From contig JAXGNU010000003.1 of the NCBI GenBank assembly GCA_040767805.1, positions 130,961 to 194,960 on the forward strand: a stretch of DNA of 64,000 nt. The letters run 5' to 3'. The notes beneath the pieces are model-generated. The model was not told the origin of the DNA, did not search any database, and saw nothing but the letters and a program-made list of their open reading frames with translations. The first letter of the stretch is position 1; every line of letters starts with the position of its first letter. Shown here piece by piece: positions 19,209-59,373 of the stretch. The translations under genes and the position numbers were made by a program. This DNA is from Thermovirgaceae bacterium. Lineage in GTDB: Bacteria; Synergistota; Synergistia; Synergistales; Thermovirgaceae.

Positions 19209-20474
19209 ATGAGCGGTGACCACCGGGGAGGGATCGCGGTGAACGCGGGGGACGTCAAAAAAGCGGTAAAAGCCCGGGAACGGGAGATCGTCAGTTTCCT
19301 TTCCAAGGTCCTTCAGACTCCAAGCGTGACGGGCTACGAAGCCGCGGTGGCGGAAGTGATCGCCCGGGAGATCGAAGGGATAGGTCTCAGGCCGCGGATC
19401 GAAGAAGCCGAAAAAGGAAGGCCCAATCTTTTGGCGGAATGGGAGGGCCTGCCGGGGCCGCGGTTTGTCTTTAACGGCCACATGGATGTATTCCCCCCGC
19501 CGGCAGGTTCAGAAGAGGAATACGGCGGACCCTGGTCGGGGCGGGTGGAAGGCGGCTGGATCTTCGGAAGCGGTGCCAACGACATGAAAGCAGGCCTCTG
19601 TGGCTCGATCATGGCCGTCCGAGTACTAAAGGAAATGGGATTCGTGCCGAAGGGGAGCGTCCTGCTGACCTGTACCTGCGATGAAGAGAACGGCGGCTGG
19701 CTCGGAGTGAAACACCTCTTGGGAAAAGGGTTGATAAAGGGCGATCTCGGGCTGAACATGGAACCAACATCGCTGAAACTTCTCCTTGACCACAGCGGCA
19801 TTTTCAGGGCACGTTTCATCATTGAGGGAAAGGGTGCTCACGCGAGCAACCCCAGCGAAGGGATCGACGCCCTGGAAAAATCTATCGGGGTCATCCAGGG
19901 GCTTTACGAACTGGGTAAGCGGCTGGAAAAACGATCCATCCCCGGCTGGGGAAGCCCTACCTTGAACGTGACCACCCTCCATGCGGGGACAGCGACAAAT
20001 GTCATTGCCGACCGAAGCACCTTTTCCATTGACCGAAGGCTGGTCCCCGGGGAAAGCCATGATGAGGCGGAAGCGGAAATAATGGCTGTCCTTGAAGAGC
20101 AGAGGAAAAAAGACCCGGACCTGCGCCTCGTCCGTGAGATCATCTCCGACCGGCCGGCGCTGGAGATCCCGCCCGATTCGGCCATCGTGAAAGCGATAGA
20201 GAAGGGTTTCAAGGACCTCCAGGGCAAGCCTCTGGAAAGAATGAAGGCGCGCTTCGGCTCCGATGCCGCCGACATCGTGAAAAACACCGGCATGCCAATG
20301 CCAATCCTCGGTCCGGGGAATGAGGATGAAGCCACATCGGTTGGCGAAAAATTAAGTATCGAAGAATACCTAGCCGCTGTCGAGATTTACGCCCTTACCG
20401 TCGCCAGGCTGTTATCTACCAGGGCGGGGTCAGATCCACACGGATCTTCGCCCCGGGCCTCGTCTACCACTTAA
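19209..20474 (+). CDS. M20 family metallopeptidase (ArgE/DapE-like)
   Basis: FNGHMDV, GSGANDMKAG, CDEENGG, MEPT, GKGAHAS, GSDA. Confidence 0.9.
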   Translation: MSGDHRGGIAVNAGDVKKAVKAREREIVSFLSKVLQTPSVTGYEAAVAEVIAREIEGIGLRPRIEEAEKGRPNLLAEWEGLPGPRFVFNGHMDVFPPPAGSEEEYGGPWSGRVEGGWIFGSGANDMKAGLCGSIMAVRVLKEMGFVPKGSVLLTCTCDEENGGWLGVKHLLGKGLIKGDLGLNMEPTSLKLLLDHSGIFRARFIIEGKGAHASNPSEGIDALEKSIGVIQGLYELGKRLEKRSIPGWGSPTLNVTTLHAGTATNVIADRSTFSIDRRLVPGESHDEAEAEIMAVLEEQRKKDPDLRLVREIISDRPALEIPPDSAIVKAIEKGFKDLQGKPLERMKARFGSDAADIVKNTGMPMPILGPGNEDEATSVGEKLSIEEYLAAVEIYALTVARLLSTRAGSDPHGSSPRASSTT

Positions 20475-20667
20475 GCCACCGCCCTGGAAGGGCAGGCTCC
20501 ATTCCAGCTTGCGCCAGCGGACGACATAAAAAATGACGGAGGCGGCATTTCAGAGCCAAGTAAGACCGGATAACCGGCCTACGGACCCCAGGAGCCACTC
20601 CTCCGCCAACAACATAGTAAACAAAATCATGGGGCCTGTCTAACTCAAGAATTCAAGGGTAGGCCCC
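20426..20667 (+). mobile_element. Probable decayed mini-element of a divergent Y1/HUH repeat family
   Basis: Left end GGGGTCAGATCCACAC; 20441-20470 translates RIFAPGLVYH (compare RIEYPGAFYH of the Y1 transposase); right end 20645-20667 on the minus strand reads GGGGCCTACCCTTGAATTCTTGA. Confidence 0.45.
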
Positions 20668-20674
20668 GCTGGGC

Positions 20675-21982
20675 TTAAAAGCCTTCGAGCTCCAGAGTGT
20701 CCAGCGTCGTCACGGCGCCTTCGTGCGAGTATTGGTAGAGCCCGGCGTGCCGTACGGAACTTTTCGGGGCGATCGCGACGAACGTCATCGTAGGTGTCGC
20801 GTTCTTGTCGATCCATGTTCCGGAGTTCACATATACGGCGCTCTTCCCGTCGTGCGTCTCCGAGGGGATGATCCTGGATTCGTGGGTGTGGCCGAAGACC
20901 ACGATACGCTTGTCGGACGCCGGGTTTCGGAAGTACTGCACAACGGCTTGATTGTCCGTTTCAGCCGAAGAAGCCGCCTTGGCGAGCGCGTCCCTGGCGG
21001 TAATTTTGACGGCAACCCTGTTGAGTGCCTGCCGTTCGTCCCACGTGTCCTGTATCCCTTTGAACAAATTCACGTCGATGACGCCGCCCTCCTCCGCCTG
21101 ACGGGGTATGAGGTCGCTCATCGCATAGGTTTTAGTGAAGCCGTCGATGTTGGTCCTGATGATCTTCTCCTCGAAGTCTTCTTTTATGGGCAGCTCGTCC
21201 ATCAGTGCTTCCCATACCTGCCAGTAGAGAAATTCGAGATCCTGGCTTTCGCCGAGGGAATTCGGAATGACGACCGGTCTGATCTTGCTCGGCTTGGGCT
21301 TGCCTTCGACGACGGAGAGCGCCGCGATGCGGGTGAAGAAGTACCCGGGAGGCAGGATTGAACCTGGAGCGACCTCTTTGTTCGAGATGGGATCCGGCGC
21401 ACAGAAGAAATTGTAGCGGTGCCCGTGCTCGATGGCGATCTCGGGATGGCCGTCCGGAGAATAGGTCCCGAGCCCCCGGACATCGCGCGCTTCCGCCATT
21501 CCGGGGAAGATGGTCTGGATGCTCTCGGAGGAGATCAGCAGGTCGTGATTCCCCGGCACGTAGACCACCTTGATCGTTCCGTCCCGGATAATGTCGTTGA
21601 ACGCGTCGACCACGTCCTTGTTGTTCGCGGCGACGCGCTGCACGAACTCCTTCTGGGTCTTTCCGGCGTACGTGTCCGTGCCGGCGGGGATGAACCACTC
21701 GTCGACGAGGTCGCCTGCGACGACTAGTTCCTTGATGTTCGGAGCGCACCGGACCTTCCGAAGAAAGTCGGCAAGCGGAGCGCGGTTACGCTGAATCTCC
21801 GCGTACCGGTCGTCCATCCCCAGATGTATGTCGCTGATGACGACGATGACGGAGCGTTCGCCGCCGAGCGCTGGAACGCCGCTCTCATCGAGAGTGAAGG
21901 CATAGTCCGACGCGAAGCAGAGGGGCGCAGTGCACAACAGTAAAAACAACAGAATGATGCTCTTGATACCCGTTCTTCTCAT
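20675..21982 (-). CDS. Secreted calcineurin-like metallophosphoesterase
   Basis: Signal peptide MRRTGIKS...LCFA; ISDIHLG, AGDLVD, VPGNHD, EHGH, FGHTH, YVNSGTW. Confidence 0.88.
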   Translation of the reverse strand: MRRTGIKSIILLFLLLCTAPLCFASDYAFTLDESGVPALGGERSVIVVISDIHLGMDDRYAEIQRNRAPLADFLRKVRCAPNIKELVVAGDLVDEWFIPAGTDTYAGKTQKEFVQRVAANNKDVVDAFNDIIRDGTIKVVYVPGNHDLLISSESIQTIFPGMAEARDVRGLGTYSPDGHPEIAIEHGHRYNFFCAPDPISNKEVAPGSILPPGYFFTRIAALSVVEGKPKPSKIRPVVIPNSLGESQDLEFLYWQVWEALMDELPIKEDFEEKIIRTNIDGFTKTYAMSDLIPRQAEEGGVIDVNLFKGIQDTWDERQALNRVAVKITARDALAKAASSAETDNQAVVQYFRNPASDKRIVVFGHTHESRIIPSETHDGKSAVYVNSGTWIDKNATPTMTFVAIAPKSSVRHAGLYQYSHEGAVTTLDTLELEGF

Positions 21983-22105
21983 GGTCTCATTCCCTTTCGT
22001 GTGCGAAGTGATCGGTTGATGCGCGCAACTCCGCTTTATCGTAATAAAGTTAAGTGGCGGTATGGGCTGCTCTGTGCGAACAATACCACGAATTTCTCCC
22101 TTATA

Positions 22106-22127
22106 GGTGTCAGACCTACACAATTGA
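22106..22127 (+). repeat. 22-bp island repeat, perfect copy
   Basis: GGTGTCAGACCTACACAATTGA. Confidence 0.95.
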
Positions 22128-22131
22128 TGAA

Positions 22132-26601: not shown

Positions 26602-26637
26602 AGGGTGGGCGAGCCCCAGGGGCCGCCCACCCTCTTT
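26602..26637. terminator. Terminator between the convergent SDR and yedF genes
   Basis: AGGGTGGGCG pairs with CGCCCACCCT, followed by CTTT. Confidence 0.6.
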
Positions 26638-26678
26638 GCAGGGTGCTGTCCGGGCTGGGAGAAGATCTCCCCGTGCGG

Positions 26679-27296
26679 TCAGATGCTGATGGTATTACTC
26701 GCCCTGGCCATCTTTTCCGTTATTCCATACATGTCGGCTACGCTGCCGACGGCCAGTTTGCCCTGCAGCTCGAAGTAATTGATGCAGGTCCCGCAGGACA
26801 GGATATTCGTCCCGGCGGCTTCCAGTCTTTTCAGGTCATCGATCGCATTGGAGCCTTCGGCCGTCAAGAACACCCCTGAGTTTAAGAATAATATCGATTC
26901 GGGAGGTGTCTTGAGCTCCGTCAGGGAGTAAATGAATCCCTTGACCAGGATCTTGCCCAGTTCGTCGGAACCAGCCCCCATGCCGTCCTTGCCGATCACG
27001 ACGACCATTCTTTCGGGAGCCGCGGAAGGGCGGACCTCGCCTTGTTCGCTCCTCTCCTCTTCAACAGCGGGGGCCGCGGCGCCGCTTTTAACGATAAGGA
27101 CATCGAAAAGGCCCGACGAAACCTCCTGGTAAGAAAAATCGTACCCGTAGCCCCTGGCCATTTTCTCAAGATTCTGCACCGCCACGATGTTGTCCACTTT
27201 CACGGTGACGGCCTCCACGTCCCCTTGCCCCAGCGCTTTTTTGGCTTTTATGACCGGTATGGGACACGGCTGCCCCAAGACATCGATAGTTTTCAT
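26679..27296 (-). CDS. yedF: Sulfurtransferase-like selenium metabolism protein YedF (TusA + DsrE domains)
   Basis: IDVLGQPCPIPVIKAKK; G.GSDELGKILVKGF; FLNSGV; SCGTC. Confidence 0.9.
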   Translation of the reverse strand: MKTIDVLGQPCPIPVIKAKKALGQGDVEAVTVKVDNIVAVQNLEKMARGYGYDFSYQEVSSGLFDVLIVKSGAAAPAVEEERSEQGEVRPSAAPERMVVVIGKDGMGAGSDELGKILVKGFIYSLTELKTPPESILFLNSGVFLTAEGSNAIDDLKRLEAAGTNILSCGTCINYFELQGKLAVGSVADMYGITEKMARASNTISI

Positions 27297-27315
27297 GGCC
27301 GACCTCCTCTTCCTG

Positions 27316-29748: not shown

Positions 29749-29768
29749 CCTCTTTACCCTTCCTCCTA

Positions 29769-29790: not shown

Positions 29791-29796
29791 CAGATC

Positions 29797-48891: not shown

Positions 48892-50303
48892 CAGACTTGT
48901 CCAAAATAGCTTTTTACAGAAATTAGAAGTGCCTCCCGCAACCTTGGAATATTATTATTTTGCCAACACAACAAACCCCTTAGAGGAGGCAAACCAATGC
49001 TGAAGGTTGCAAGCCTGTTCAGTTAAACACTTGGTCAAGTTACGCGTGTCGATTTTAAGAAATTGGTTGTCAAACACGGTGCCGAGCGTCATTCAAAAGG
49101 CTTTCGTTCCTGGACTCAGTTTGTTTCAATGCTTTTTTGTTATCTTGCAAGGTCTGATTCCTCGCGTTAGATATGCCACGGTCTACAAAGTTGCAACGGA
49201 AAGCTCGTACATCTGGGTGTAAACAGGAATCCTAACAAATCGACTCTCTCTTATTCCAATGAACATCGCCCCAGCGAACTCTTCGTGGATCTTTTCTGGG
49301 ACCTTCTGGGCAAGTTCAGGGCATCGGCCAATCTGGGGGGCATGAACAAAACCAGGTTCAGGTTCAAGAACAAGCTACTTCTTTTCGATTCGATAACGCT
49401 CTGTCTATCCCTTTTCCCATGGGCCAAAGTCAGACATCAAAAGGGGAGGTATCAAGCTCCAAGTCCTTCTGGATAGCAACGACAATATGCCTTCTTTTGT
49501 CCATATAACCGAAGCAAAGATGCGCGACAGCAACGTAACGCAACTTCTTTCACTGCCTGCGGAATCTATAATCGCTCTGGATCTGGCTTATATCGACTTC
49601 GACCTCTTCAGGAAATGGAACGAAAAAAGGCCTTCTTCGTGACGAGGACGAAAAAGAATGCATCATACGTTGTCACGGAACGACTAAGGATCCCCCAGAA
49701 CAGCAATGTGCTCAAAGACGAGATCGTCTGTCCCTCGGGCATGGGAATCTGGGAGAAATATCCGCTCCCCTTGGGAAGGGCCGTGGTATGGGACGACAAG
49801 AATAAAACAGGGATCACCCTTCTCACCAATCATCTGAGGTTCGGATCCACCACAATAAGTTCTATCTACTAAGAGCGATGGCAGAAAGAGGTCTTCCTCA
49901 AGACCCTGAAACAGAACCTCAAGGTCTAAACCTTTATAGGGGTGAGTAAGAACGCTCTTCGCATCCAGATTTGGACAGCTCTTATTGCTCTACTGGTTAT
50001 CAAGTGGATGTACCATTGTTTAAAGGCTGGCTGGTCGTTCTCGAATATGGCAGTAATGTTTAGTCTGAATCTCTTTACCTACAGGGATTTAGACAAATGG
50101 CGAGGGCGAATCCTACGCCGCACTGCCTTTGATACCTGAGCCTGAAGAGTTGCGACTGGCCCTGCGTTGATTTGGACAGCCTGTTTAATTTCAAGGTTCA
50201 AAAGAAAAGAGAGACCAGGTTTCAAGCTTGCCTAATTTTGCCTCCAGAACCGTTGCGGTTACTGGATTATGTTTTCTATTTCAGTTTATTTTGGACAACT
50301 GTG
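48892..50303 (+). mobile_element. Decayed IS4-family element (transposase pseudogene with stops and frameshifts) between dctM and dctP
   Basis: IRs CAGACTTGTCCAAAATA and TTATTTTGGACAACTGTG; fragments KSTLSYSN..RP, FFVTR.K, LLTNHL, Y*ERW..E.F.K.LKQNL, SKNALRIQIW. Confidence 0.8.
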
Positions 50304-50351
50304 ATTGCTCCTGGTTTGTATCAACCCATGAACCCTGACAATGCACCTCGG

Positions 50352-51632
50352 TTACTGAAACAATCCGGGTAAAAACATTGAAAGCTGCGGGATATAAGTA
50401 ACAAATACTAAAGCAATCATCATAGCTAAAATTAACGGCCAGACAAAACGATAAATTTTATACACGCTTATACCTGAAATGGCTGATGCAATAAACAGGT
50501 TTGAACCGTAAGGTGGGGTCACAAAACCAATTGAAAGGTTAATAGTGAGGAAAATCCCAAAATGAATTGGGTCTACTCCCAATGCCATGACGACGGGGAG
50601 AAAAATAGGTGCTAAAATGACGCAGGACGAAATATTATCAATAAAACAACCTACAATTAATAAAAAAATGTTTATCAGGATAAGAATCACAAAAGGGCTC
50701 ACATCTAAATTTATAAGGTATTTGCCTACAAGGGCAGGTACTTGCTTCATGGTCACAAGGTGGGCAAATGATACTGATAATCCTAAAATAAAAGTCACGG
50801 CACCATTCACAAGCATCGTATCCCGAAACGAAGCATAAAGGTTTTTAAGGTCCAATTCTTTATAAACGAAACATCCGATAATAACTGCGTATACTGCTGC
50901 TACAACAGCCGCTTCTGTAGGTGTAAAAACACCACCATAAATGCCACCTAGAATGATAACAGGGACAAGAATCGCCCATATGGCATCAATCAATGAATGC
51001 ATTATCATTTTAAAAGAAGCCTTCTCACTTTTCCCTCGGTACCCGTGTTTTTTACAAATTATGTAATTAGCTAGCATAAGCAAAAAAGTCATAAGGATTC
51101 CAGGTATGATCCCTGCAATAAAAAGTGCCCCTATCGATGTACCTGTTACAACTCCATAAATAACAAAAGGAATGCTCGGAGGAATAATTACTCCTATCGA
51201 CCCAGCAGCTGCTGTGAGGGCTGCAGCATAGCCCTCAGGATAATTCTTGTCTCGCATTTCCGGAATCATAAAAGAGCCTATCGCAGATACTGTAGCATTA
51301 GCAGAACCTGAAATAGCACCAAAAAACATGCATGCCAGAGTTGTTACCATAGCAAGTCCCCCGGTTAGATGTCCAACGAGCGTATCCGCTAGATCCAATA
51401 AACGCCTTGAAATTCCTCCATAACGCATCAAGTTACCTGCAAGAATAAAGAAAGGTATTGCCATAAGCGGGAACGAATCCAATCCTGCAAACGCGTTCTG
51501 TGCGACCATCAGCGTAGGTATCTGCGAAAATATGGTGAGCGTCAACACCGTCGTTACTCCAATAGCTATACCTATAGGGACACTTAAAGACAACAATGTA
51601 AGCAGAAGAACGAAAAGAGAAAAAATCATCAT
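50352..51632 (-). CDS. dctM: TRAP transporter large permease DctM
   Basis: SFPLMAIPFFILAG, FGAISGS, IIPPSIP, FTPTEA, TPPYG. Confidence 0.94.
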   Translation of the reverse strand: MMIFSLFVLLLTLLSLSVPIGIAIGVTTVLTLTIFSQIPTLMVAQNAFAGLDSFPLMAIPFFILAGNLMRYGGISRRLLDLADTLVGHLTGGLAMVTTLACMFFGAISGSANATVSAIGSFMIPEMRDKNYPEGYAAALTAAAGSIGVIIPPSIPFVIYGVVTGTSIGALFIAGIIPGILMTFLLMLANYIICKKHGYRGKSEKASFKMIMHSLIDAIWAILVPVIILGGIYGGVFTPTEAAVVAAVYAVIIGCFVYKELDLKNLYASFRDTMLVNGAVTFILGLSVSFAHLVTMKQVPALVGKYLINLDVSPFVILILINIFLLIVGCFIDNISSCVILAPIFLPVVMALGVDPIHFGIFLTINLSIGFVTPPYGSNLFIASAISGISVYKIYRFVWPLILAMMIALVFVTYIPQLSMFLPGLFQ

Positions 51633-52129
51633 TAATCATCATCTCCTTCCGATGACAAGCCAAGTCCAAGTACCATTCTCTGACAAAGACGAAAGGACAT
51701 AAGAATGCATCCCACTGGGACAGAAAGATAGGCCCAACCCATGGGAAGGCGAAGAGCAGATGATAATTGCATACTTTGGAATAATCTACTTGTTAATTCC
51801 GATGATTTAACTGTAAGAAAAATACAGAAAGTAATCCATATAATAAAAACCAACCAATCAAGTTTTCTCTGCGCCTTTTTACTTAAATATACCTTAATTG
51901 CCTCAATACGAATATGAGATGCTTCTCTGACAGCAAGACTTGCACCTAGCCACGTTTGCCAGACAAACAGATATCTTGCTAATTCTTCACTCCAATATAA
52001 AGATGACTGAAAGACGTACCTCATGACTACTTGACTGAATACAAGAATAACAGTAAATACAAGAGATGGCACAAGAATCAACTCTTCAAATCTTTTATTA
52101 AGAAATCTCAAAAAAGCCATTTGTCTCAT
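51632..52129 (-). CDS. dctQ: TRAP transporter small permease DctQ
   Basis: QVVMRY, WSEELAR, HIRI; four TM segments. Confidence 0.92.
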   Translation of the reverse strand: MRQMAFLRFLNKRFEELILVPSLVFTVILVFSQVVMRYVFQSSLYWSEELARYLFVWQTWLGASLAVREASHIRIEAIKVYLSKKAQRKLDWLVFIIWITFCIFLTVKSSELTSRLFQSMQLSSALRLPMGWAYLSVPVGCILMSFRLCQRMVLGLGLSSEGDDD

Positions 52130-52187
52130 TGATCATCTCACCCTTTCATTAAGGCCTTATCATAAAATAATTAAAAACCGTTAAGGT

Positions 52188-53468
52188 TTATTCATCTCCC
52201 TCGTCAGAAAATGTTAATGGAGCTAAATCTGAAATAAGTTTAATTTTATTGTTTCTCTTTACTTCTCCCAAGATTGATTCTGACACTTGTATTTCTTTTA
52301 ATTCCATTGTATTTTTTATTCGAACTAATCTTGTTTCCTCAGGAGATGTCCTTTTTGAACATAAGATTGCGAACATAATTGCATCTCGTTCATTGTTTAG
52401 GACCATTGGCAACTTGGCTCCTTCTGGAGACGCTACAGCAATAGAATTAGTATATACTTTTCCATAATCAATCGCGTTAGCTACTTTTCTAGTAGTAATA
52501 TCTGCCATTGATAACCCCGTAGCATGCCCCTTAGTCGCTTTTGATAAACCCAATACAACAATTCTATTTATTTTAATAAAATCGAATCCTTTTACATTGA
52601 GAACGGTCCTGCCTATTACATTTGGATCCATTCCCGCTCCACTGATATCTTTGCCTATCTCATCAACAACCAATACATCAATGTCGTCAAAAAAAATTTT
52701 AGCCATATTCTTTTTTGCAATTTCTAACAATTTTGGTTCCGCTGATATAATTTCATTCTTTTTCAGAATAGTAATTCTTGCAGTATTGTGGTAAGCATTA
52801 TCAACGATACCTAACGCAAACAAAATTGGAGTTCTTGCAATGCACAATTCAGCTATTTCAGGCAAGAGCCACGGAAAGTTTTGCATACCTTCTTTATGAA
52901 TCGCACAAGCACCTTTGTGGTTACCAAGCCCAATCGCTAACATCTTACAAAGGCCACTTTCAATATCAGCTCGAAAATCCGTATGAGGCTTTATCCGGTT
53001 ACAAACAACAATACCGTCAGCTTCTAAAGCATATTTATCAAAATAAACTGGTATTTTACCTCGCACATGACCAAGGCATACTGTGTCTAAAGAGGACTCG
53101 ATTTTCATTTTAACATTTTTTTCTGTAACCCCTAAATTTTCTAATACTTCTACTTGTCCTAATGATGAGGCATTTCCATGACTCCCCATCGCGGGGATCA
53201 CAAACGGTTCTGCTCCTTTGGATTTAAGAAACTCGCCTAACGCGAATATTATTCTAGCGATATTTGGGATACCCCTGCTCCCAGCAGTTATTGCAATGCG
53301 TTTTCCGTTAAAGTCCATCATCCTGACTTTCGTAAACTCTGCCCTTAGGGCGTCGGTAATGTCTTCAACTTTTTCCTGGGGAAAAGACTGCTCAACGCTA
53401 GCCATAAGAGGGAAAACAAATTGATGACACATTGGGATACGATAATCAATTTTTTTTAACCAGGACAT
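52188..53468 (-). CDS. Lactate racemase (LarA)-superfamily / DUF2088-like protein
   Basis: AITAGSRGI, PAMGSHG, NRIKPHT.F, ESGL.KM.AIGLG.H.GA, GKDISG.GMD. Confidence 0.78.
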   Translation of the reverse strand: MSWLKKIDYRIPMCHQFVFPLMASVEQSFPQEKVEDITDALRAEFTKVRMMDFNGKRIAITAGSRGIPNIARIIFALGEFLKSKGAEPFVIPAMGSHGNASSLGQVEVLENLGVTEKNVKMKIESSLDTVCLGHVRGKIPVYFDKYALEADGIVVCNRIKPHTDFRADIESGLCKMLAIGLGNHKGACAIHKEGMQNFPWLLPEIAELCIARTPILFALGIVDNAYHNTARITILKKNEIISAEPKLLEIAKKNMAKIFFDDIDVLVVDEIGKDISGAGMDPNVIGRTVLNVKGFDFIKINRIVVLGLSKATKGHATGLSMADITTRKVANAIDYGKVYTNSIAVASPEGAKLPMVLNNERDAIMFAILCSKRTSPEETRLVRIKNTMELKEIQVSESILGEVKRNNKIKLISDLAPLTFSDEGDE

Positions 53469-54214
53469 AGAAATCTCCTTGAAATTAATTATTAATCCGA
53501 CGAAACATAGTAAAAGGGTACCGGCTTAGACAAATATTAAAAACCATTGTGACATCGAAAAGAATTTGGAAAATACCCGAGAATTATTTGAAGCCATATT
53601 TCGGTAACTAGTTAAGAATCCCCATTGGATTTAAGATTGAAAACCTGGACATATCAAGCATCAACTATTTAAATCGATACACCATAGCAATCCGTTCTCG
53701 CACTACTTTTTAATTCAAAGTCGAATCTCCTTTCTAAGAAGAAGCACAAGTCGGCGAAAGTATCTTAGGAGCTCAAAGATTTAAAGGCCTGTTGTTTTTA
53801 AGCCTTCTAGAAGACCACAGTATTCGGAATCTTTATACACAACGGCAGAGCCAATGCTGAGGTCGTATCCAATTGCAAGAAAACGGCTCTACAAGCAGTC
53901 ATACAGTGGCGAGTCGACTCTCGGACGGGTTATAAAGCGATAAATGGCAAAGTTGCGATGAACTCGTCGATCTTGAGTGCAAGATATATTTTTGTGTGGA
54001 CCTGGTCATAATGAATACGCCCTAGTCAGAACCCATATAAAACAAAATCAAAACCTATTGATGTTTTGCTAAAATGCGATTGTCAAAGTGCAGAGGTATG
54101 AGCCACAAAAATTTCTCCTTGCAACTGGAACAATGCGATTTGCGGTTCAATAATCGCGATTAGGGCCACTACTAGCTCTTGGATAATATATTTCAATAAA
54201 ACCTCCAACATTAA

Positions 54215-55408
54215 TCATTTTACAAGCTTACCCCCTCTACCTAGGCATTCGTTGTAGTAGACAACGAACAGTTCCATAGCCCGCTTGATTTGCTCTATGT
54301 CAATCGTGTAGGCGATCCTCACTCTGTTCTTAATGCCGAAGGCATCGCCAGGAGTCACAGCTACACCGAATTTGTTCATAAGGCCAACCGCGAACTCAAC
54401 GGGGGTCATTTCAAGTTTTTCAATGGATGGCAAAACATAGAACGCTCCTTTTGGGGAGGGGAAATCCGCTCCGGGGCATTGTCTCAATGCAGCAACAACA
54501 ACATCCCGCCGCTTTTTAAATTCGTCACAAATCAAAGATGTATAACCTGAACTCTTACGGAATGCCTCCGCAGCTCCATATTGGGAAAATGACGGTGCGC
54601 AGCTGGTAAGCATCAGATGGGACTTGGCGATGTAAGGGACTACTTGTGGTGGCATACTGGCGTAACCTATACGCCAACCCGTCATTGCAAAAGTCTTCGA
54701 TACAGAGTTGACATAGAGAACCTGGTTACTGATCTGCGGATACTTTAGCGGGCTGACATGTTTTTCCTCGTAAATTATCGCCGAGTAACATTCATCGGTC
54801 AAAAGCCAGATATCTTTTCCCTTGATGAACTCCACTAGTTTTTCCAAATCAGACTTGTTGACAACACACCCCGAAGGATTATTGGGTGAGTTGATTATGA
54901 TCATTTTTGTTTTTTCTGTGACCGCAGCAGATATCCTATCAATGTCCAATCCATAGTATTCACCCAGGTCAGCGGGCACTTCCACAGGAATCACACCAGC
55001 AAAGAAGCACTGTTCCTTGTAGGCCACATAACATGGGGTCAGCAAAATGACTTCATCTCCATGGTCCAGCAGCCCAAGCAACAACGCCATAAGTGCCTCT
55101 TCGGCACCGCATGTAACAACGATATTTTCCGAATCCAGAAACACTCCTCTTTTAGCTTCATGATCAACTATCGCCTTTCTGAGCTCCAGGATACCGTTCA
55201 TCGAAGTGTAGTGGGTCCGGCCGGAGTTTATCGCCTTAATACACGCTTGTCTGGCTTCAATGGGCGAGTCGAAATCCGGTTCACCTATCTCAAGGTGGAA
55301 TACCTTCTTGCCTTCAGATTGAAGTTTAAGGGCTGCCTCAAAAATATCTCTTATACCACCTTCAAACGAGCATTGCGATATCCGACTGCTCTTTTTATAA
55401 ATATTCAT
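54215..55408 (-). CDS. PLP-dependent class I/II aminotransferase (AspC-like)
   Basis: IGEPDF, NSPNNPSG, DECY, SKTFAMTGWRIG. Confidence 0.93.
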   Translation of the reverse strand: MNIYKKSSRISQCSFEGGIRDIFEAALKLQSEGKKVFHLEIGEPDFDSPIEARQACIKAINSGRTHYTSMNGILELRKAIVDHEAKRGVFLDSENIVVTCGAEEALMALLLGLLDHGDEVILLTPCYVAYKEQCFFAGVIPVEVPADLGEYYGLDIDRISAAVTEKTKMIIINSPNNPSGCVVNKSDLEKLVEFIKGKDIWLLTDECYSAIIYEEKHVSPLKYPQISNQVLYVNSVSKTFAMTGWRIGYASMPPQVVPYIAKSHLMLTSCAPSFSQYGAAEAFRKSSGYTSLICDEFKKRRDVVVAALRQCPGADFPSPKGAFYVLPSIEKLEMTPVEFAVGLMNKFGVAVTPGDAFGIKNRVRIAYTIDIEQIKRAMELFVVYYNECLGRGGKLVK

Positions 55409-56415
55409 CGATCTACTTTTCCCTTACCTTTCCATTGATTTTTTTCGATTGCGTTAAGTTGACCGACAGGTCTTTTACCCAGATATACGTCCCTGACTTC
55501 CTCTGCCGCGATTATCCTTAGTTTCTTAAGAGAGGAATTTGAATACCAAGCCGTGTGAGGGGTTATTAGGCACCCGGGTTCGTCAAATATGGGGTGGGTC
55601 ATGTCCGGTATGGGTTCCCCCTCTACTACATCCAGGGCGGCTCCTGCAATAATTCCGTGTTGAAGAGCATATGAAAGATCATCCAGATTTACAAGACCAC
55701 CCCGTGAGGTATTGATGATATTTGCAGTGGGTTTCATAAGTTTTAATTTCCTGATGTCAACAAAATATCGAGTTTTATCGTTGAGAGGGACGTGAATACT
55801 GACGACATCGGCAGTACGGAAAACATCGTCCATGTCCTCAATGACCTTCACGCCTATCTCTTCGCTTTTCTGCCTATTAATAAAGGGGTCATAAACAATA
55901 ACGTCCCCGAAGAGGCTCTTTGACTTTCTAGCCAATATCTGTCCTATCTGCCCAAAACCCAGAATGCCCAGGATTAGTTCCTGGAACTGATCAGTCGGAG
56001 GAAAATCCTCGAGTTTCCATGATTTGTCCCTGGTCACCCTCCAGGTATAATGCGGTAATTTCCTCACTAGTGATAATGCACAAGCAAGGGCATGGTCGGA
56101 GACCTCCTCAAGATTGAAGGCGGGAACGTTGCATACTATTATCCCTTTTGCTGTAGCTGCAGGAATATTGATATTCTCGACACCCATGCCGTGTCTTACA
56201 ATAATTCTACATTTTCTCATCAGCGATATTCTTTCTGCGGTTATTGGGGTAATATCACAAATAAGTCCGTCAATTTTTGGCAAATTTCTCTCGAATTCTT
56301 CTACGCTTCTAAGATGCAATACCTCAGATCCAACAGTTTTAAGGACCTCTGTCTCAATATCAATATCTTTGTAGTTAACGACACTGTATATTCCAGTTTT
56401 GAACTCGCTCATCAC
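55405..56415 (-). CDS. D-2-hydroxyacid dehydrogenase (SerA/CtBP-like)
   Basis: GFGQIG, SIHVPL, INTSRG, ALDV, TPHTAW. Confidence 0.92.
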   Translation of the reverse strand: MMSEFKTGIYSVVNYKDIDIETEVLKTVGSEVLHLRSVEEFERNLPKIDGLICDITPITAERISLMRKCRIIVRHGMGVENINIPAATAKGIIVCNVPAFNLEEVSDHALACALSLVRKLPHYTWRVTRDKSWKLEDFPPTDQFQELILGILGFGQIGQILARKSKSLFGDVIVYDPFINRQKSEEIGVKVIEDMDDVFRTADVVSIHVPLNDKTRYFVDIRKLKLMKPTANIINTSRGGLVNLDDLSYALQHGIIAGAALDVVEGEPIPDMTHPIFDEPGCLITPHTAWYSNSSLKKLRIIAAEEVRDVYLGKRPVGQLNAIEKNQWKGKGKVDR

Positions 56416-56424
56416 GACACACTC

Positions 56425-58044
56425 CTATATAAAGCCTTCCCAGCCATGGATTCGACCAAACGACAGTTTGCCATTCATAATGGTCTTCACAATCTTGGCA
56501 TCCCGGAGTTCCATTGAAGGAATAGCGAACAAATCCCTGTCAAAGATCACGAGATCTGCTGCCTTTCCTGGCGTTATGCTCCCGTTCCAGTCCCATGTGG
56601 CATGTGCCTTGGCAGGGTTGGTGGTGTATATGTTCAGGGCTTCATCTAATGTAAGTTTCTGCTCTGGACGCCAAGTCCTTTTCCCGTCATAACTGGTTCG
56701 GTTTACGAGGGCCCAGATCCCACATATAGGGTTCAGGGATTCTATCGGTGCATCACTGGAACCACAGAGCATCAATCCTGCATTAACCAAATCTTTCCAT
56801 ACACAAGCATACTTCTGGTTATCTCCAAGCCGGGTGGGTACCATATCTATATCAGAAGGAACATAACTCGGCTGGATAACGCATGCCACCGGCAGTTTTC
56901 TCATTCTCTCGATCTGGTCGGGCCTGATAATTTCAATATGGTTCAACAGGTAGGGATACCTCGGTTCCGGGTAAATTGAGCGTGTCTTCTCTATAGCATC
57001 GAGAATCTGGTCGATCGCCCTGTCGCCGATGGCGTGAACAAGGATATGATCTTCGCGACGTGTCGATTCACAGAGTTTTTCAACAAGTTCATCAAACTGA
57101 TGTATCAACAGGCCGTTTGTATCCGGATCATCAGCATATGGAAAGGAAATGGCAGCAGTACGGGAACCCAAACTTCCATCTAGAAAAATTTTGAAACCCT
57201 CAAAACGCACAAAATCATTTCCCAGGATACCACCCATGGAAGGCACGGACAGTTCATCATGGGTGATATAGATCCGACATGGAAGTCGGTTTTGCTCCAT
57301 CAAGTTCTGATAAAGTCCAAGCTCCTCCTCCATTCCAAGGCTGGAGGCGCTACAGGAATGAAGAGTGGTAAGACCATGGCTGGCTGCATGTTTAAGATAT
57401 ACGTCCAGATTATTCAGAAGTGTTTCTTTGTTGTTGTATAGCTCATTTTTTAAAACCGCGTAAACTGGAAGTTGGGCCCCTTCTAAAAGAATTCCTGTTG
57501 GGTTTCCTGAGGCATCTCTACATATTCCTGGCAGGTCCATTTCGGAGATCCCCGACAGCTCAAGGGCTTTTGAATTGGCTACAGAGGCGTGAGTGCAGAT
57601 CCTATGTATAATGACAGGATTATCGATCCCCGCCTTATCAAGGTCATTGGCATTCGGTAGCACGGAACTGCCCCAGTTGTTTTCGTTCAGCATGGTTCCG
57701 TATATCCAGGATCCAGGTGCGACTTTCGATGAGCGTTCCTGAAGTTTTTCGATCACGTCTTGGTAGGATTTTGTGGAAGACATATCGATGGACTGCATTC
57801 CTTTTGCACAGGTAAGAACATGGAGGTGGCAGTCACTCATACCTGGTATTACGCTAACCCCTTCCAATTCGAAGCGGACAGCATCTTCAATGAATGGATG
57901 AACATCCAGATCCACTGTTTTTCCTAAGGCTATGATCTTCCCGTCCCCTATTATCAACGACTCAACTTTCGGATTTGCAGCATCTCCGGTCCATACGCTG
58001 CCATTTCTTAGATAGAGATATTTCCCTCTTGGCAAAGTATTCAT
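56425..58044 (-). CDS. Amidohydrolase_3 (YtcJ-like) metal-dependent hydrolase
   Basis: PGMSDCHLH, KIFLDGSLGSRTA, HAIGDRA, GSSDAP, GKAADL; ATG at 58044 after a GGAGG RBS. Confidence 0.9.
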   Translation of the reverse strand: MNTLPRGKYLYLRNGSVWTGDAANPKVESLIIGDGKIIALGKTVDLDVHPFIEDAVRFELEGVSVIPGMSDCHLHVLTCAKGMQSIDMSSTKSYQDVIEKLQERSSKVAPGSWIYGTMLNENNWGSSVLPNANDLDKAGIDNPVIIHRICTHASVANSKALELSGISEMDLPGICRDASGNPTGILLEGAQLPVYAVLKNELYNNKETLLNNLDVYLKHAASHGLTTLHSCSASSLGMEEELGLYQNLMEQNRLPCRIYITHDELSVPSMGGILGNDFVRFEGFKIFLDGSLGSRTAAISFPYADDPDTNGLLIHQFDELVEKLCESTRREDHILVHAIGDRAIDQILDAIEKTRSIYPEPRYPYLLNHIEIIRPDQIERMRKLPVACVIQPSYVPSDIDMVPTRLGDNQKYACVWKDLVNAGLMLCGSSDAPIESLNPICGIWALVNRTSYDGKRTWRPEQKLTLDEALNIYTTNPAKAHATWDWNGSITPGKAADLVIFDRDLFAIPSMELRDAKIVKTIMNGKLSFGRIHGWEGFI

Positions 58045-58051
58045 AACCTCC

Positions 58052-58786
58052 TTAGTCATTGTAAATGTTTTTACTCCCATACTCCCAGAAAGCCGCCCTA
58101 AGATGCGCCTCAAGTTTACTTCTAACCTCCTGAGGAGTACCTCTTTCAAGCATTTGAAGCAGTTCCCTGTGGTCATCCAGGCTCCTGTTAATGGAAAAGT
58201 TGTTTGTCGGCCAGATCTTCTCAATTTCCCAACGGTCAAGTCCTGTAAGGTTTATGAATTTTTTCATTATTTCAAATAAAACCTGGTTGCCGGAGGACTT
58301 TGCGAGTTGCAGATGAAAAGAAATATCCAGTTCCCGGTATCCATCAAAATCATTCTCACCTATCGCATTCTGCATTCTTTTCAATATTGTTTTCAGCGAC
58401 CTCAGATCTTTGGGTTTGATCCTTCCCGCGGTATATTCCCAAATGATCGGTTCAATAATGAGCCTGGCAATGTATGCATCCAAGGAACCTGCTCCCTGGA
58501 TTTCTTCCCAGAATGATGCGGACTGGGCAACCATAGGCGCAAAAGACCTCTCTTGCTGCTGAACAAAGGTCCCTGTGCCTGGTACTCTTTTAATAACACC
58601 CATTGCGACCAGCCCCGATGTAGCTTCCCTTATGACTGAACGGCTGACCCCGAACTGTTTGGCAAGGTTCAGCTCGTTTGGGAGTTTGTCGGATTCCTTA
58701 AGCCGTCCTTCTTCAATGGCTTCAAGGATCTGCTTCATAACGCTAGATGATTTTTTCCCACTGCTCAACTTGTTAAACATTTGCAT
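58052..58786 (-). CDS. GntR/FadR-family transcriptional regulator
   Basis: LPNE..LAKQFGVSRSVIREA...GTGTFV; FCD motifs D.SFH, SGN. Confidence 0.93.
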   Translation of the reverse strand: MQMFNKLSSGKKSSSVMKQILEAIEEGRLKESDKLPNELNLAKQFGVSRSVIREATSGLVAMGVIKRVPGTGTFVQQQERSFAPMVAQSASFWEEIQGAGSLDAYIARLIIEPIIWEYTAGRIKPKDLRSLKTILKRMQNAIGENDFDGYRELDISFHLQLAKSSGNQVLFEIMKKFINLTGLDRWEIEKIWPTNNFSINRSLDDHRELLQMLERGTPQEVRSKLEAHLRAAFWEYGSKNIYND

Positions 58787-58798
58787 GCCTCCCGTTTG

Positions 58799-58838
58799 CT
58801 TGACATAAATAATATGTCTGACATATTATTTTGTCAAG
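58799..58838 (-). promoter_or_regulatory. Promoter of the gntR operon embedded in a 40-bp near-perfect palindrome (candidate operator)
   Basis: CTTGACATAAATAATATGTC-T-GACATATTATTTTGTCAAG; minus strand TTGACA-17 bp-TATTAT. Confidence 0.75.
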
Positions 58839-58855
58839 TTAGTTTTTCATGCGAT

Positions 58856-58896
58856 TGTGACCGGACAGGGATAATGTCACCCCTTAAGGGGACAGG
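58856..58896 (+). repeat. Isolated IS1202-like end, 41 bp identical to 38645-38685
   Basis: TGTGACCGGACAGGGATAATGTCACCCCTTAAGGGGACAGG. Confidence 0.88.
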
Positions 58897-59152
58897 CACA
58901 ATGAAAAGGGACAATCAATAAATGCGTCAAGCATTTATTAAGACTTAGCGAAGTAATACCTTTATCTCTTTTGAGTAATTTTTTTGCTTGCGATTTTGCC
59001 TTTGATTACACCATTTAGCTCTTCTCCTTTTCGAGAGGGAGAGCGTTTTGATGTTCTTGCTCATTGCCAGGGAATCTAGGCTGTTTTTTGCAAGTTAGAA
59101 TTCCCCAATGTTGCAAAACTTTTTCCCCAGTGCAGGGTGGGAGCAGATCAAA

Positions 59153-59373
59153 GGGGTCAGACCTACAAATTGATGAATTATATCTAGGTGAAGACAGAAC
59201 CCCATCTTCCCGCCGGCTGGCTGCTTCGGGGGACGCTTAGTTTATCGCTACCTTTATCGTTTCATTACCGAACCTTATTTTCAGTCCGAAAAGGGCCTGG
59301 ATATCCCTGTCGGGAGTCCTTTCCTGCGGGTTCTGCTCTGCTCATCTCGTTTCCGTCAATTAGTTTTGACAAC
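59153..59373 (-). mobile_element. Repeat-bounded mini-element, copy 3 (inverted), at the island's right border
   Basis: GGGGTCAGACCTACAAATTGA, then the reverse complement of the mini-element interior, then degenerate TCAATTAGTTTTGACAAC, 24 bp before the dinG stop. Confidence 0.85.

What the first reader, a model, noticed from the sequence alone, without database searches (positions are those of the whole stretch)
20426..59373. Candidate HUH (Y1)-transposase-driven, integron-like gene-cassette array built on a 22-bp repeat
Seen in sequence: GGTGTCAGACCTACACAATTGA or its complement occurs at 22106, 29769, 32666, 39598, 41268 (split by an IS), 43195, 44866, 45067 and 59153. Degenerate copies lie at 20426, 20645, ~31649, 45870 and 59356. 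All intact copies are intergenic and at module junctions. Inward-facing pairs enclose the Y1 transposase or 223-bp remnants of it. Outward-facing pairs enclose cargo: phosphoesterase (20667-22106), methyltransferase+creatininase (39619-41268) and protease-PDZ (43216-44866). Neighbouring modules differ visibly in GC content. Established: Y1/HUH enzymes (IS200/IS605 TnpA, RAYT/TnpA-REP) cut and join ssDNA at short structured repeats, and short repeats beside chromosomal Y1 genes are known. Inference: here the repeats act as cassette joints that accumulate and shuffle unrelated accessory genes over ~39 kb without a tyrosine integrase or attC sites, so the region behaves like an integron analogue.
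Basis: partly seen in the sequence, partly recalled or inferred. Interest (0 to 1): 0.9.

Follow-up and report, generated by a model that had tools for sequence, protein, structure and literature searches.

The report
Y1 transposase repeats mark variable DNA
The 22-bp repeat is the terminal inverted repeat of a little-studied, already named class of tyrosine (HUH) transposase gene, and in this digester bacterium its copies sit where related strains have gained, lost or duplicated DNA, but it is not shown to be an integron-like cassette system.

Summary
The repeat is real and non-random: 6 matches in the window against 0 expected, and 29 family copies in the 1.65-Mb genome against 0-3 in shuffles. 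It is the terminal inverted repeat (TIR) of a "TIRtron". A TIRtron is a RAYT-like Y1/HUH gene (TIRYT; TnpA_Y1 subclass 2.1) with a DnaA-DBD-like C-terminal domain, as described by Di Nocera 2013 and Quentin 2018.

In other genomes, 47 of 54 testable homologue loci across many phyla carry the same ~1.04-kb TIR-gene-TIR unit with a GGGGTCAGRYCT core. Three things are unusual here:
- The unit carries an AbiE toxin-antitoxin pair inside its TIRs.
- Solo TIRs and ~223-bp TIR doublets cluster around it.
- Strain comparisons and independent assemblies show indels and duplications flush (2-12 nt) with TIR edges.

A DDE insertion sequence also inserts specifically into the repeat.

The integron analogy is not shown. 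Events look one-ended or driven by homology, cargo includes conserved multigene blocks, IS debris is involved, and TIR doublets elsewhere (contig C15) are stable. The 223-bp elements are not Y1 remnants, and single repeats form no hairpin. Verdict: new variant of a known kind, of moderate interest.

The parts
29769..32687 (-). Cargo-bearing TIRtron: a 2.9-kb unit bounded by perfect 22-bp inverted repeats (29769-29790 and 32666-32687). It holds AbiEii, AbiEi and the Y1 gene.
   Evidence: The same unit occurs at 95% identity in G004. G001 and the metagenome contigs L168 and L180 have the 1.04-kb form without AbiE.
31644..32633 (-). Y1-A gene (P0001). The ORF is 329 aa; the likely start is M11 at 32603. 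It has a RAYT-like HUH/Y1 domain plus a DnaA-DBD-like C-terminal domain.
   Evidence: Pfam Y1_Tnp 51 bits. NCBIfam REP_Tyr_transpos 78.4 bits against a cut-off of 80. Invariant H70, H72, Y129, N133, P134 in 25 sequences. Model pLDDT 85. Foldseek 4er8_A TMt 0.73 and 3pvp_A TMt 0.74.
29797..31532 (-). AbiEii (29797-30717) and AbiEi (30675-31532) type IV toxin-antitoxin pair, carried inside the TIR pair. The module 29798-31665 is absent in G001, L168 and L180.
   Evidence: Pfam. Junctions.
31648..31669 (+). Possible decayed inner TIR copy overlapping the Y1 3' end. It lies where G001 has its intact left TIR.
   Evidence: About half of 22 positions match, so the call rests on position only.
22106..22127 (+). 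Solo TIR, 16 nt upstream of the phosphoesterase start and followed on its inner side by a hairpin.
   Evidence: L140 lacks window 19153-22097; that junction lies 8 nt from this TIR's outer edge.
39094..39619 (-). Truncated second Y1 copy (5' 448 bp) plus its TIR (39598-39619), 96.6% identical to 32162-32687.
   Evidence: Metagenome contig L164 has this copy complete with its own left TIR.
41268..43216 (+). A ~223-bp TIR doublet interrupted by IS copy 1 (41283-43004). The 4-bp target duplication TACA lies at 41279-41282 and 43005-43008. The right TIR is at 43195-43216.
   Evidence: IS-free forms occur in G001 and L151.
44866..45088 (+). ~223-bp TIR doublet. The left TIR has 4 mismatches and the right TIR has 1.
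59153..59377 (-). ~223-bp TIR doublet, inverted relative to the other two. Its far TIR is degenerate.
   Evidence: G004 has one copy beside the same helicase gene.
45886..47597 (+). IS copy 2 (DDE_Tnp_1 / DUF772), inverted and ~95% identical to copy 1. It abuts the motif-like 45870-45885 and has no matching target duplication.
32688..38644 (-). Low-GC block 1 (GC 0.43-0.45): an FmdA-like amidase and a Liv-type ABC transporter. It starts 1-2 nt past the TIR outer edge.
   Evidence: Absent in G004, G001 and L175/L176. Contigs of 4 runs span the junction.
38645..39081 (+). IS debris: the 5' fragment of an rve-type IS (38645-38957) and the first 108 bp of a 2.3-kb IS (38974-39081). Another 46 bp of the latter lies inverted at 45102-45147.
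45148..59152 (-). Low-GC block 2 (GC 0.35-0.47): TRAP transporter, LarA-like isomerase, aminotransferase, 2-hydroxyacid dehydrogenase, amidohydrolase, GntR. It includes IS copy 2.
   Evidence: The stretch 54243-58846 is 90% identical to G005:C63. Its junctions were not checked independently.
26632..29756 (-). TusA / SelD-like / cysteine desulfurase module. It is absent in G004 and in L171/L177/L149, with the right junction about 12 nt from the TIR outer edge.
39674..41230 (+). Methyltransferase plus creatininase, lying between outward-facing TIRs.
   Evidence: A 983-bp duplicate of the creatininase part, flanked by TIR elements, occurs in L177.
6121..6143 (-).

Best explanation
The 22-bp repeat is the terminal inverted repeat (TIR) of a TIRtron. 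A TIRtron is a RAYT-like Y1/HUH gene (TIRYT, TnpA_Y1 subclass 2.1) with a DnaA-DBD-like C-terminal domain, flanked by inverted TIRs whose core is GGGGTCAGRYCT. The genome has two diverged paralogues, each with its own TIR variant. It also has non-autonomous relatives of the unit: solo TIRs and TIR doublets of 60-230 bp.

The 39-kb region around paralogue A is a strain-variable zone. TIR edges there coincide with junctions of deletions, insertions and duplications. I infer three processes acting together:
1. Breakage and joining at TIR ends, probably by the Y1 enzyme. This gives one-ended events such as adjacent deletions and duplications that start at a TIR and end anywhere.
2. Homologous recombination between TIRtron copies, which brought in or removed low-GC block 1.
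3. A DDE insertion sequence that targets the TIR, plus other IS debris.

Shown: the identity of the gene and repeat, the conserved unit across phyla, the clustering, the breakpoint positions and the IS targeting. Inferred: that the Y1 enzyme makes the cuts, and the direction of each event.
For: Identity of the gene.
- Pfam Y1_Tnp; NCBIfam REP_Tyr_transpos 78.4 bits against a cut-off of 80.
- HUH histidines and the YxxxNP tyrosine are invariant in 25 sequences.
- The model (pLDDT 85) matches TnpA-REP 4er8_A best (E 2.6e-6, TMt 0.73), and its C-terminus matches DnaA-DBD 3pvp_A (TMt 0.74, rmsd 2.3).
- Passages read in PMC3733652 and PMC6006769 define TIRYT/TIRtrons. They describe TIRs sharing GGGGWSAS, TIR families as singles, dimers or clusters, and Bac_DnaA_C-like C-termini.

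The unit.
- Paralogue B on C5 is flanked by GGGGTCAGGTCTACACTTTTGA: one copy at its 3' end and 4 tandem copies at its 5' end.
- 47 of 54 testable homologue loci carry flanking inverted repeats; nearly all units are 1.0-1.06 kb.

Clustering.
- 29 copies in the genome at PWM >=14 bits against 0-3 in 5 shuffles. Family A lies only in this window plus C12.

Breakpoints at TIR edges.
- G004 lacks 26632-29756 (about 12 nt from a TIR).
- G001, L168 and L180 lack AbiE, 29798-31665 (7 nt inside the TIR).
- L175/L176 is 100% identical over 14106-32689 and then switches 2 nt past the TIR to methyltransferase-creatininase at 96.4%.
- L140 lacks 19153-22097 (8 nt from a TIR).
- G001 and G004 differ from the window just beyond their 223-bp element.
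- The C12 solo TIR truncates a DUF6884 gene.
- These rest.

Duplications that begin at a TIR.
- L177: 983 bp. L114: 560 bp, ending 12 nt before the next TIR.

The junctions are real.
- Logan contigs of 4 runs from 4 studies span 32600/32633 into block 1 without a difference.
- Block-1 depth tracks the flank: 9.2-9.6 vs 12.4, 71.8 vs 66.4, 26.1 vs 30.5, 15.6 vs about 25.
- L164 independently joins block 1 to a complete second TIRtron and the methyltransferase.

IS targeting.
- 3 insertions have a matching 4-bp duplication right after GTCAGRYC (window copy 1, L024, L025).
- A motif half lies on at least one side of nearly all the other ends examined.
Against: - No activity of the Y1 enzyme is shown, and no circular or excised form appeared among the joints. 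Those contigs are unitig-like and cannot show rare forms.
- TIR doublets on C15 are at conserved positions between G000 and G004 (94-96% collinear). The paralogue-B locus is syntenic too. So most copies are stable.
- Block 1 is flanked by 526-948 bp direct repeats, which host homologous recombination explains without any Y1 action.
- IS fragments sit at the edges of both low-GC blocks.
- Intergenic gaps here are short, so a gene-level indel may end near a TIR by position alone.
- Breakpoints defined by alignment ends at a repeated element are partly circular evidence.
- The genome is a draft of 29 contigs (80.6% complete). The junctions of block 2 (45.1 and 59.15 kb) have no independent support.
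- Family A begins GGTG, not the published GGGG.
Confidence: 0.6

Rival explanations
1. The repeats are recombination sites of an integron-like platform: the Y1 enzyme excises and inserts discrete repeat-bounded cassettes, building a shuffled array of accessory genes.
For: - Modules that vary between strains are bounded by repeats: AbiE between a TIR and a decayed TIR, and block 1 between two same-orientation TIRs.
- A whole creatininase gene is duplicated between TIR elements in L177.
- L114 has 7 same-orientation TIR-plus-hairpin units separated by unrelated genes, with no Y1 in the 12 kb fetched.
- Toxin-antitoxin-like or defence-like genes sit between TIR copies beside Y1 in G005:C18 and L031.
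- Only 18 of 72 metagenome loci holding the exact TIR also hold a Y1 gene.
Against: - Most variable segments are flush with a TIR on one side only and end inside or beside unrelated DNA on the other.
- Cargo ranges from 1 to 14 kb, includes operons with their own regulators, and runs in both orientations.
- Repeat orientations are mixed.
- 22.1-26.6 kb is collinear with G004.
- Most of the 47 homologue loci with flanking repeats show only those two TIRs in up to 20 kb.
- No same cassette was found in two different arrays, and no circular junction was seen.
- Single TIRs have no fold like attC.
Confidence: 0.13
2. Passive repeats. The Y1 gene is domesticated or inactive. The TIRs are only short dispersed homologies and IS targets, and all variation comes from host recombination, IS activity and horizontal transfer in a region that tolerates change.
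For: - Both Y1 loci are syntenic and look vertically inherited between G000 and G004.
- C15 doublets are stable.
- Block 1 has long direct repeats.
- Two IS copies, three IS fragments and one IS without a target duplication lie in the region.
- Passages of PMC5581495 describe RAYT groups with housekeeping-like, single-copy behaviour.
Against: - A 22-bp homology is short for RecA-type recombination, yet junctions lie 2-12 nt outside the TIR rather than within it.
- The other side of these junctions has no repeat.
- The TIR core is conserved across phyla while the protein falls to 34-40% identity, which argues for a maintained protein-DNA interaction.
Confidence: 0.22
3. Assembly artefact. The mosaic, with its GC jumps at repeats, arose because a metagenome assembler joined different organisms or strains through shared repeats.
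For: - GC jumps coincide with repeats.
- L175/L176 is 100% identical up to the TIR and different beyond it.
- In run X3 the methyltransferase-creatininase-protease part has depth 7.7-9.9 against 66-72 for its neighbours, so several strains coexist.
- The junctions of block 2 are unverified.
Against: - Contigs from 4 runs of 4 studies span TIR-to-block-1 and TIR-to-methyltransferase, each with its own Y1 variant and no differences. Block-1 depth follows the high-GC flank over an 8-fold range.
- L164, L152 and L151 support further junctions independently.
- G005 carries 4.6 kb of block 2 at 90% identity.
- 22 bp is shorter than usual assembly k-mers. This last point is my own knowledge, not a call.
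Confidence: 0.05

Closest known systems
TIRtron / TIRYT (Di Nocera et al. 2013, PMC3733652), equated with TnpA_Y1 subclass 2.1 (Quentin et al. 2018, PMC6006769)
   Same: A RAYT-like Y1 gene flanked by terminal inverted repeats that begin with a GGGGWSAS-type motif. It has a C-terminal Bac_DnaA_C-like HTH domain. The TIRs also occur as a modest repeat family of singles, dimers and clusters.
   Different: - Here one unit carries a toxin-antitoxin pair inside its TIRs.
- TIR edges coincide with strain-level indels and duplications.
- A DDE IS targets the TIR.
- One TIR variant starts GGTG.
- In the passages I read, neither paper reports cargo or structural variation. A search for 'TIRYT' found only 3 papers holding the term, 2 listed.
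REP-RAYT / REPIN systems (E. coli TnpA-REP, PDB 4ER8; Pseudomonas REPINs)
   Same: Best structural match of the N-terminal domain. The gene is flanked by its own repeats in inverted orientation, repeats form doublets, and each paralogue has its own repeat variant.
   Different: Single repeats are not palindromic hairpins. The copy number is tens, not hundreds. An extra DnaA-like domain is present. The NCBIfam score is 1.6 bits under the cut-off.
IS200/IS605 insertion sequences (IS608, ISDra2)
   Same: HUH/Y1 catalytic fold.
   Different: Those elements have unlike subterminal hairpins at the two ends and no TIRs. Here the ends are perfect inverted repeats without hairpins.
Integrons
   Same: Unrelated accessory genes separated by copies of one short repeat; content varies between strains.
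   Different: - No IntI-type tyrosine recombinase among the 33 ORFs scanned.
- Nothing attC-like in the single repeat copies.
- No common cassette orientation, and cargo spans several genes.
- Events are flush with a repeat on one side only.
One-ended transposition and adjacent deletion by element ends (IS91/ISCR rolling-circle HUH elements; classical IS adjacent deletions). Recalled, not tested.
   Same: It resembles these in outcome: variable lengths of DNA next to one element end are deleted, duplicated or moved.
   Different: Membership is not claimed. IS91-type enzymes have a different architecture and ori/ter ends. No rolling-circle signature was tested here.
REP-targeting insertion sequences (ISPpu9 in REPs, PMC8450116 abstract; IS1397 and ISKpn1 recalled)
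   Same: A DDE IS inserts at a fixed position in a short chromosomal repeat.
   Different: Here the target is a TIRYT TIR. The IS carries DDE_Tnp_1, DDE_Tnp_1_6 and DUF772 domains.

Membership tests
TIRYT / TIRtron | Y1 enzyme with HUH motif and catalytic tyrosine | tested here: met
   Pfam Y1_Tnp. H70, H72, Y129 are invariant in 25 sequences. Foldseek matches TnpA structures.
TIRYT / TIRtron | Gene flanked by terminal inverted repeats rather than REP hairpins | tested here: met
   Perfect 22-bp inverted pair at 29769/32666. G001 has the 1037-bp unit. Paralogue B is flanked likewise. 47 of 54 testable homologue loci have flanking inverted repeats. Single copies form no hairpin.
TIRYT / TIRtron | TIR shares the motif GGGGWSAS | tested here: inconclusive
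   Family B (GGGGTCAG) fits exactly. Family A (GGTGTCAG) differs at position 3.
TnpA_Y1 subclass 2.1 | C-terminal Bac_DnaA_C / HTH-like domain | tested here: met
   Foldseek 3pvp_A DnaA-DBD, TMt 0.74, rmsd 2.3 over 92 columns. Pfam Bac_DnaA_C is weak only, E 0.044. No tree was built against the paper's subclasses.
REP-RAYT / REPIN | Repeat is a short imperfect palindrome (a REP) forming a hairpin on its own | tested here: not met
   dG -1.3 to -3.2 kcal/mol, z -0.78 to +0.63, for 6 of 6 copies.
REP-RAYT / REPIN | Curated RAYT protein model | tested here: inconclusive
   NF047646 scores 78.4 bits against a cut-off of 80 and covers profile positions 4-146 of 146.
REP-RAYT / REPIN | Repeats dispersed in high copy number as inverted doublets | tested here: inconclusive
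   Doublets are present on C5, C15 and in G025. But there are only 29 copies in 1.65 Mb, and family A is confined to one region.
Integron | IntI tyrosine recombinase next to the array | tested here: not met
   No Phage_integrase-type hit among the 33 ORFs of 19-61 kb. Only a fragment of an rve-type IS is present.
Integron | attC sites and co-oriented, mostly promoterless single-gene cassettes | tested here: not met
   Repeats lie in both orientations. Cargo includes operons with regulators (GntR) and runs on both strands. No attC covariance model was run.
IS200/IS605 | Unlike subterminal hairpins at left and right ends, no TIRs | tested here: not met
   The ends are identical inverted repeats without hairpins.

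The most novel reading that the evidence does not exclude
TIRYT enzymes are active in vivo, and their TIRs act as portable recombination joints. A TIR end can capture, duplicate or delete any neighbouring DNA. Clusters of TIRs would then grow into strain-specific arrays of accessory genes (toxin-antitoxin pairs, transporters, enzymes). This would be an HUH-driven, single-strand counterpart of the integron, and the first function assigned to the large subclass 2.1 of Y1 proteins.
Probability: 0.2. Interest if true: 0.85.

Novelty: new variant of a known kind. Interest (0 to 1): 0.5.

Why it matters
TIR-associated Y1 proteins are very common. More than 5,600 relatives scored E <= 0.001, and Quentin 2018 calls subclass 2.1 the largest. 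Yet no function or activity was found for them in the two papers that the search on 'TIRYT' listed.

This locus, with at least six comparators from close relatives and independent assemblies, gives natural-variation evidence that their TIR ends take part in DNA rearrangement. It also gives concrete substrates for a bench test: a 22-bp TIR, about 7 nt of outer flank, a 1.04-kb minimal unit and a 223-bp doublet.

If the enzyme is shown to act at these ends, it would explain how accessory operons are brought into small Synergistota genomes in digesters. It would also add a new way of building gene arrays. If it is not, the case is an ordinary plasticity zone decorated with a known repeat family.

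Tried and rejected
- Rfam at gathering thresholds over the whole window: no match, so the 223-bp element is no known RNA.
- RNAalifold on 5 copies of the 223-bp element: only 2 of 63 predicted pairs have a compensatory change. No case for a structured RNA.
- Sequence search of P0001 against PDB: only spurious His-tag-like hits. The fold search was needed instead.
- Pfam on the C-terminal 170 aa: Bac_DnaA_C at E 0.044 only.
- Looser motif scans for decayed copies: at <=2 mismatches to the 16-nt core the genome gives 47 hits against 31-41 in shuffles. Such hits, including 20426, cannot be trusted singly.
- Idea that 20449-20670 is another TIR doublet: it is a conserved ~220-bp intergenic element (82% to G005:C63). 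It has no TIRs in the relative and no likeness to the 223-bp element. Rejected.
- Idea that the central hexamers AGACCT and AGGTCT of the two families are an inversion: relatives also carry AGGCCT and AGATCT, so these are plain transitions.
- Idea that the motif-like 16-mer is part of the IS ends: rejected, because three insertions restore a whole TIR with a 4-bp duplication.
- Joints in the laid contigs (38692/45072, 46453/38704, 41283/43192): they have short sides of 30-43 nt and fit other copies of IS or TIR elements. They are not circle junctions.
- Not used: complex prediction, the 1.84-billion-protein profile search, and the phage and plasmid collections.

Full report
**Observation.**
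- The 22-mer GGTGTCAGACCTACACAATTGA is exact at 22106(+), 29769(+), 32666(-), 39598(-) and 43195(-), and has one mismatch at 45067(-). That is 6 matches at <=3 mismatches against none in 100 shuffles.
- At 41268 its first part is followed by a 1.72-kb IS. The remainder resumes at 43005 with a 4-bp duplication TACA.
- 59356 and 45870 are supported by their position. ~31649 is supported by position only. 20426 may be chance. 20645 is not supported.
- GC per kb runs from 0.35 to 0.68 and changes at the repeats.

**The repeat family in the genome.**
- The window is C3:130961-194960 of a 1.65-Mb, 29-contig draft that is 80.6% complete. Names given to close homologues place it in Synergistota (Synergistales, Thermovirgaceae). 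The runs that hold the locus are mostly anaerobic digesters.
- A position-weight scan finds 29 copies, against 0-3 in 5 shuffles. Family A (...AGACCTACACAATTGA) lies only in this window and once on C12. Family B (GGGGTCAGGTCTACACTTTTGA) and a hybrid form lie on C3, C4, C5, C6 and C15, often as inverted doublets 70-260 bp apart.
- The degenerate pattern occurs in 11 of 41 related genomes, counting G000 (9 of 18 others in the same family). The reversed-pattern control gave 0. In G025 most copies are about 60-bp palindromic doublets.

**The gene.**
- ORF 31644-32633(-) has Pfam Y1_Tnp and NCBIfam REP_Tyr_transpos at 78.4 bits against a cut-off of 80.
- In an alignment of 25 homologues (35-92% identity) H70, H72, Y129, N133 and P134 are invariant.
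- An AlphaFold2 model (pLDDT 85.1, pTM 0.71) matches E. coli TnpA-REP 4er8_A best (E 2.6e-6, TMt 0.73), then the ISDra2, IS608 and IS200 transposases. Its C-terminus matches the DnaA DNA-binding domain 3pvp_A (TMt 0.74, rmsd 2.3, 92 columns).
- A second paralogue (328 aa, 73% nucleotide identity) on C5 is flanked by family-B repeats, one at its 3' end and four tandem copies at its 5' end.

**What is in print.**
- Passages read in Di Nocera et al. 2013 (PMC3733652) define TIRYTs and TIRtrons. These are RAYT-like tyrosine transposase genes flanked by terminal inverted repeats, many sharing GGGGWSAS. Some of those TIRs form moderately abundant families of singles, dimers or clusters.
- Passages read in Quentin et al. 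2018 (PMC6006769) equate these with TnpA_Y1 subclass 2.1, which has Bac_DnaA_C / HTH-like C-termini.
- Passages of Bertels et al. 2017 (PMC5581495) describe RAYT groups with low-copy flanking 16-mers.
- A full-text search for 'TIRYT' found 3 papers holding the term, 2 listed. A search on Y1 transposase / integron / gene cassette / HUH listed nothing resembling a Y1-driven cassette array among the 10 shown.

**The unit is conserved across phyla.** Of 80 loci encoding relatives, 54 had a near-full-length match and enough flank. Of these, 47 carry flanking inverted repeats of 17-30 nt, and nearly all form a unit of 1.0-1.06 kb. Nearly all share a GGGGTCAGRYCT-like core even where protein identity is only 34-40%. 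Seven had no inverted repeat of >=13 nt; one of them is the AbiE-bearing unit L030. Most loci show only the two flanking copies in up to 20 kb. A few show clusters (L034, L047, L051, L052). Single copies do not fold, so these are TIRs, not REP hairpins.

**Anatomy of the window.**
- 29769-32687 is a 2.9-kb TIR-bounded unit holding AbiEii, AbiEi and Y1-A.
- 39094-39619 repeats the Y1 5' part and TIR at 96.6% identity.
- Three ~223-bp TIR doublets (41268/43005-43216, 44866-45088, and 59153-59377 inverted) share a conserved interior (81% mean column identity with the copies in G001 and G004). They share nothing with the Y1 unit beyond the termini.
- Two inverted IS copies (~95% identical) lie at 41283-43004 and 45886-47597.
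- 38645-38957 is the 5' end of an rve-type IS. 38974-39081 and 45102-45147 are terminal pieces of a 2.3-kb IS with four full copies elsewhere in the genome.
- Low-GC blocks carry an amidase with a Liv-type ABC transporter (32.7-38.6 kb), and a TRAP transporter, LarA-like isomerase and amino-acid enzymes with a GntR regulator (47.7-58.8 kb).

**Comparators.**
- G004 (same genus, 94-97% identity) is collinear over 10446-26631. It lacks 26632-29756, keeps the AbiE unit, and passes straight from the right TIR into the methyltransferase.
- G001:C108 has cysteine desulfurase, TIR, Y1, TIR, methyltransferase-creatininase, then a 223-bp element. It has no AbiE, no block 1 and no IS. Its Y1 stop codon lies inside the left TIR.
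- L175/L176/L125 (a 298-kb contig) is 100% identical over 14106-32689. Two nt past the TIR it continues into methyltransferase-creatininase at 96.4%.
- L140/L168 lacks AbiE. It also lacks 19153-22097 (M20 peptidase and phosphoesterase), with the junction 8 nt outside TIR 22106.
- L164 joins the methyltransferase, a complete second TIRtron with its own left TIR variant, the two IS fragments and block 1. So block 1 once lay between two whole TIRtrons in the same orientation, and the window carries a later deletion at 39081/39094.
- L177 carries 11 TIR copies in 14 kb and a 983-bp creatininase duplicate (96%) lying between an IS-split TIR and a 223-like element.
- L114 has 7 same-orientation TIR-plus-hairpin units within 8 kb, separated by unrelated genes. 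It also has a 560-bp duplicate that begins 9 nt before one TIR and ends 12 nt before another.
- On C12 the solo TIR cuts a DUF6884 gene at profile position 79 of 135. The three genes to its left are missing from G001, G002 and G004, apart from 305 bp that in G004 lie 20 nt beyond its 223-bp element.
- In G005:C18 and L031, toxin-antitoxin-like or defence-like genes lie between TIR copies beside a Y1 gene.

**Against a general cassette reading.**
- The doublet cluster on C15 is collinear with G004 at 94-96%.
- The paralogue-B locus is syntenic at 93-94%, differing only in tandem repeat number, 4 against 1.
- Variable segments are usually flush with a TIR on one side only.
- Block 1 has 526-948-bp direct repeats, as expected for homologous recombination.
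- IS debris is involved at the edges of both low-GC blocks.

**Is the mosaic real?**
- 18 of 24 listed runs hold at least half the words of 31000-40900; the holders come from 12 studies.
- I laid the Logan contigs of 4 runs from 4 studies. In all four, contigs run from 32600/32633 into block 1 without a difference. In X1 and X4, contigs run from 39532 into methyltransferase-creatininase. Block-1 depth follows the high-GC flank in all four runs.
- In X3 the methyltransferase-to-protease part is about 8 times rarer than its neighbours, so strains with different right-hand sides coexist.
- These contigs are short and cannot phase the whole region. Block 2's junctions are untested.

**IS targeting.**
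- The ends of 13 IS copies or fragments were examined in G000, G002 and G004.
- Three copies show a clean 4-bp duplication directly after GTCAGRYC: TACA, TTGA and TGTA.
- Nearly all other ends abut a motif half.
- Some copies have mismatched flanks, which suggests IS-IS recombination.

**Conclusion.**
- The finding is a TIRtron/TIRYT system with its TIR family: a known but barely studied kind.
- The pattern fits TIR ends as active or fragile joints, combined with homologous recombination and IS activity, better than an integron-like cassette exchanger.

Noticed in passing
window 41283-43004 and 45886-47597; L021-L029; C5:52752-62489: A 1.6-1.7-kb DDE IS (DDE_Tnp_1, DDE_Tnp_1_6, DUF772; ends CGGGYTGTTGC) inserts directly after GTCAGRYC of the TIR family with a 4-bp duplication (TACA or TTGA). 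This resembles REP-targeting ISs. Several copies have mismatched flanks.
   Followed up: partly
G000:C5:32424-32550 (L020): Paralogue B has four tandem copies of a 32-bp unit (TIR plus 10 nt) upstream of the gene. The syntenic locus in G004 has one.
   Followed up: partly
window 27316-28620 and G000:C5, upstream of 31393: Both Y1 paralogues lie directly upstream of, and co-oriented with, a SelD-like (AIR synthase-related) gene. The TIR sits 18-20 nt before that operon's first start codon (CsdA in the window, SelD-like on C5). This suggests an old block duplication or co-transcription.
   Followed up: no
window 20449-20670: A ~220-bp conserved intergenic element between the M20 peptidase and the phosphoesterase. 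Copies occur at 95% in G001:C12 and 82% in G005:C63. It has no Rfam match and no TIRs.
   Followed up: partly
TIR outer flanks, e.g. window 22096-22105 and 29759-29768; L114, L154: The 7-10 nt outside the TIR are semi-conserved (ccTyAtA or gccaga). Read on the opposite strand they look like a ribosome-binding site pointing outward. In the window four intact or near-intact copies (22106, 29769, 39598, 44866) have a gene starting 16-140 nt outside the TIR and reading away from it, and 59153 has one 367 nt away.
   Followed up: no
G000:C15:5732-20160 (L015, L016): Doublets here pair a family-B arm with a hybrid arm (family-A core, family-B tail). Their positions are conserved in G004:C3.
   Followed up: partly
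window 52188-53468: A nickel-pincer-cofactor isomerase (NCBIfam group 22, 498 bits), next to the TRAP transporter genes in low-GC block 2.
   Followed up: no
window 59085-59139 and G000:C12:20054-20107: A 55-nt stretch, 87% alike, lies beside a TIR at both loci but on opposite sides of it. The C12 copy is about 130 nt from a tRNA gene end.
   Followed up: no
L031 (contig of a bin labelled Methanomethylovorans): A Y1 unit 75% identical in protein, with the same TIR, sits in a bin labelled as an archaeon. This is either transfer or a binning error.
   Followed up: no
window 39952-44599 in run X3: Depth is 7.7-9.9 against 66-72 for 28000-38600. The dominant strain of that sample has block 1 but a different right-hand neighbour.
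   Followed up: no
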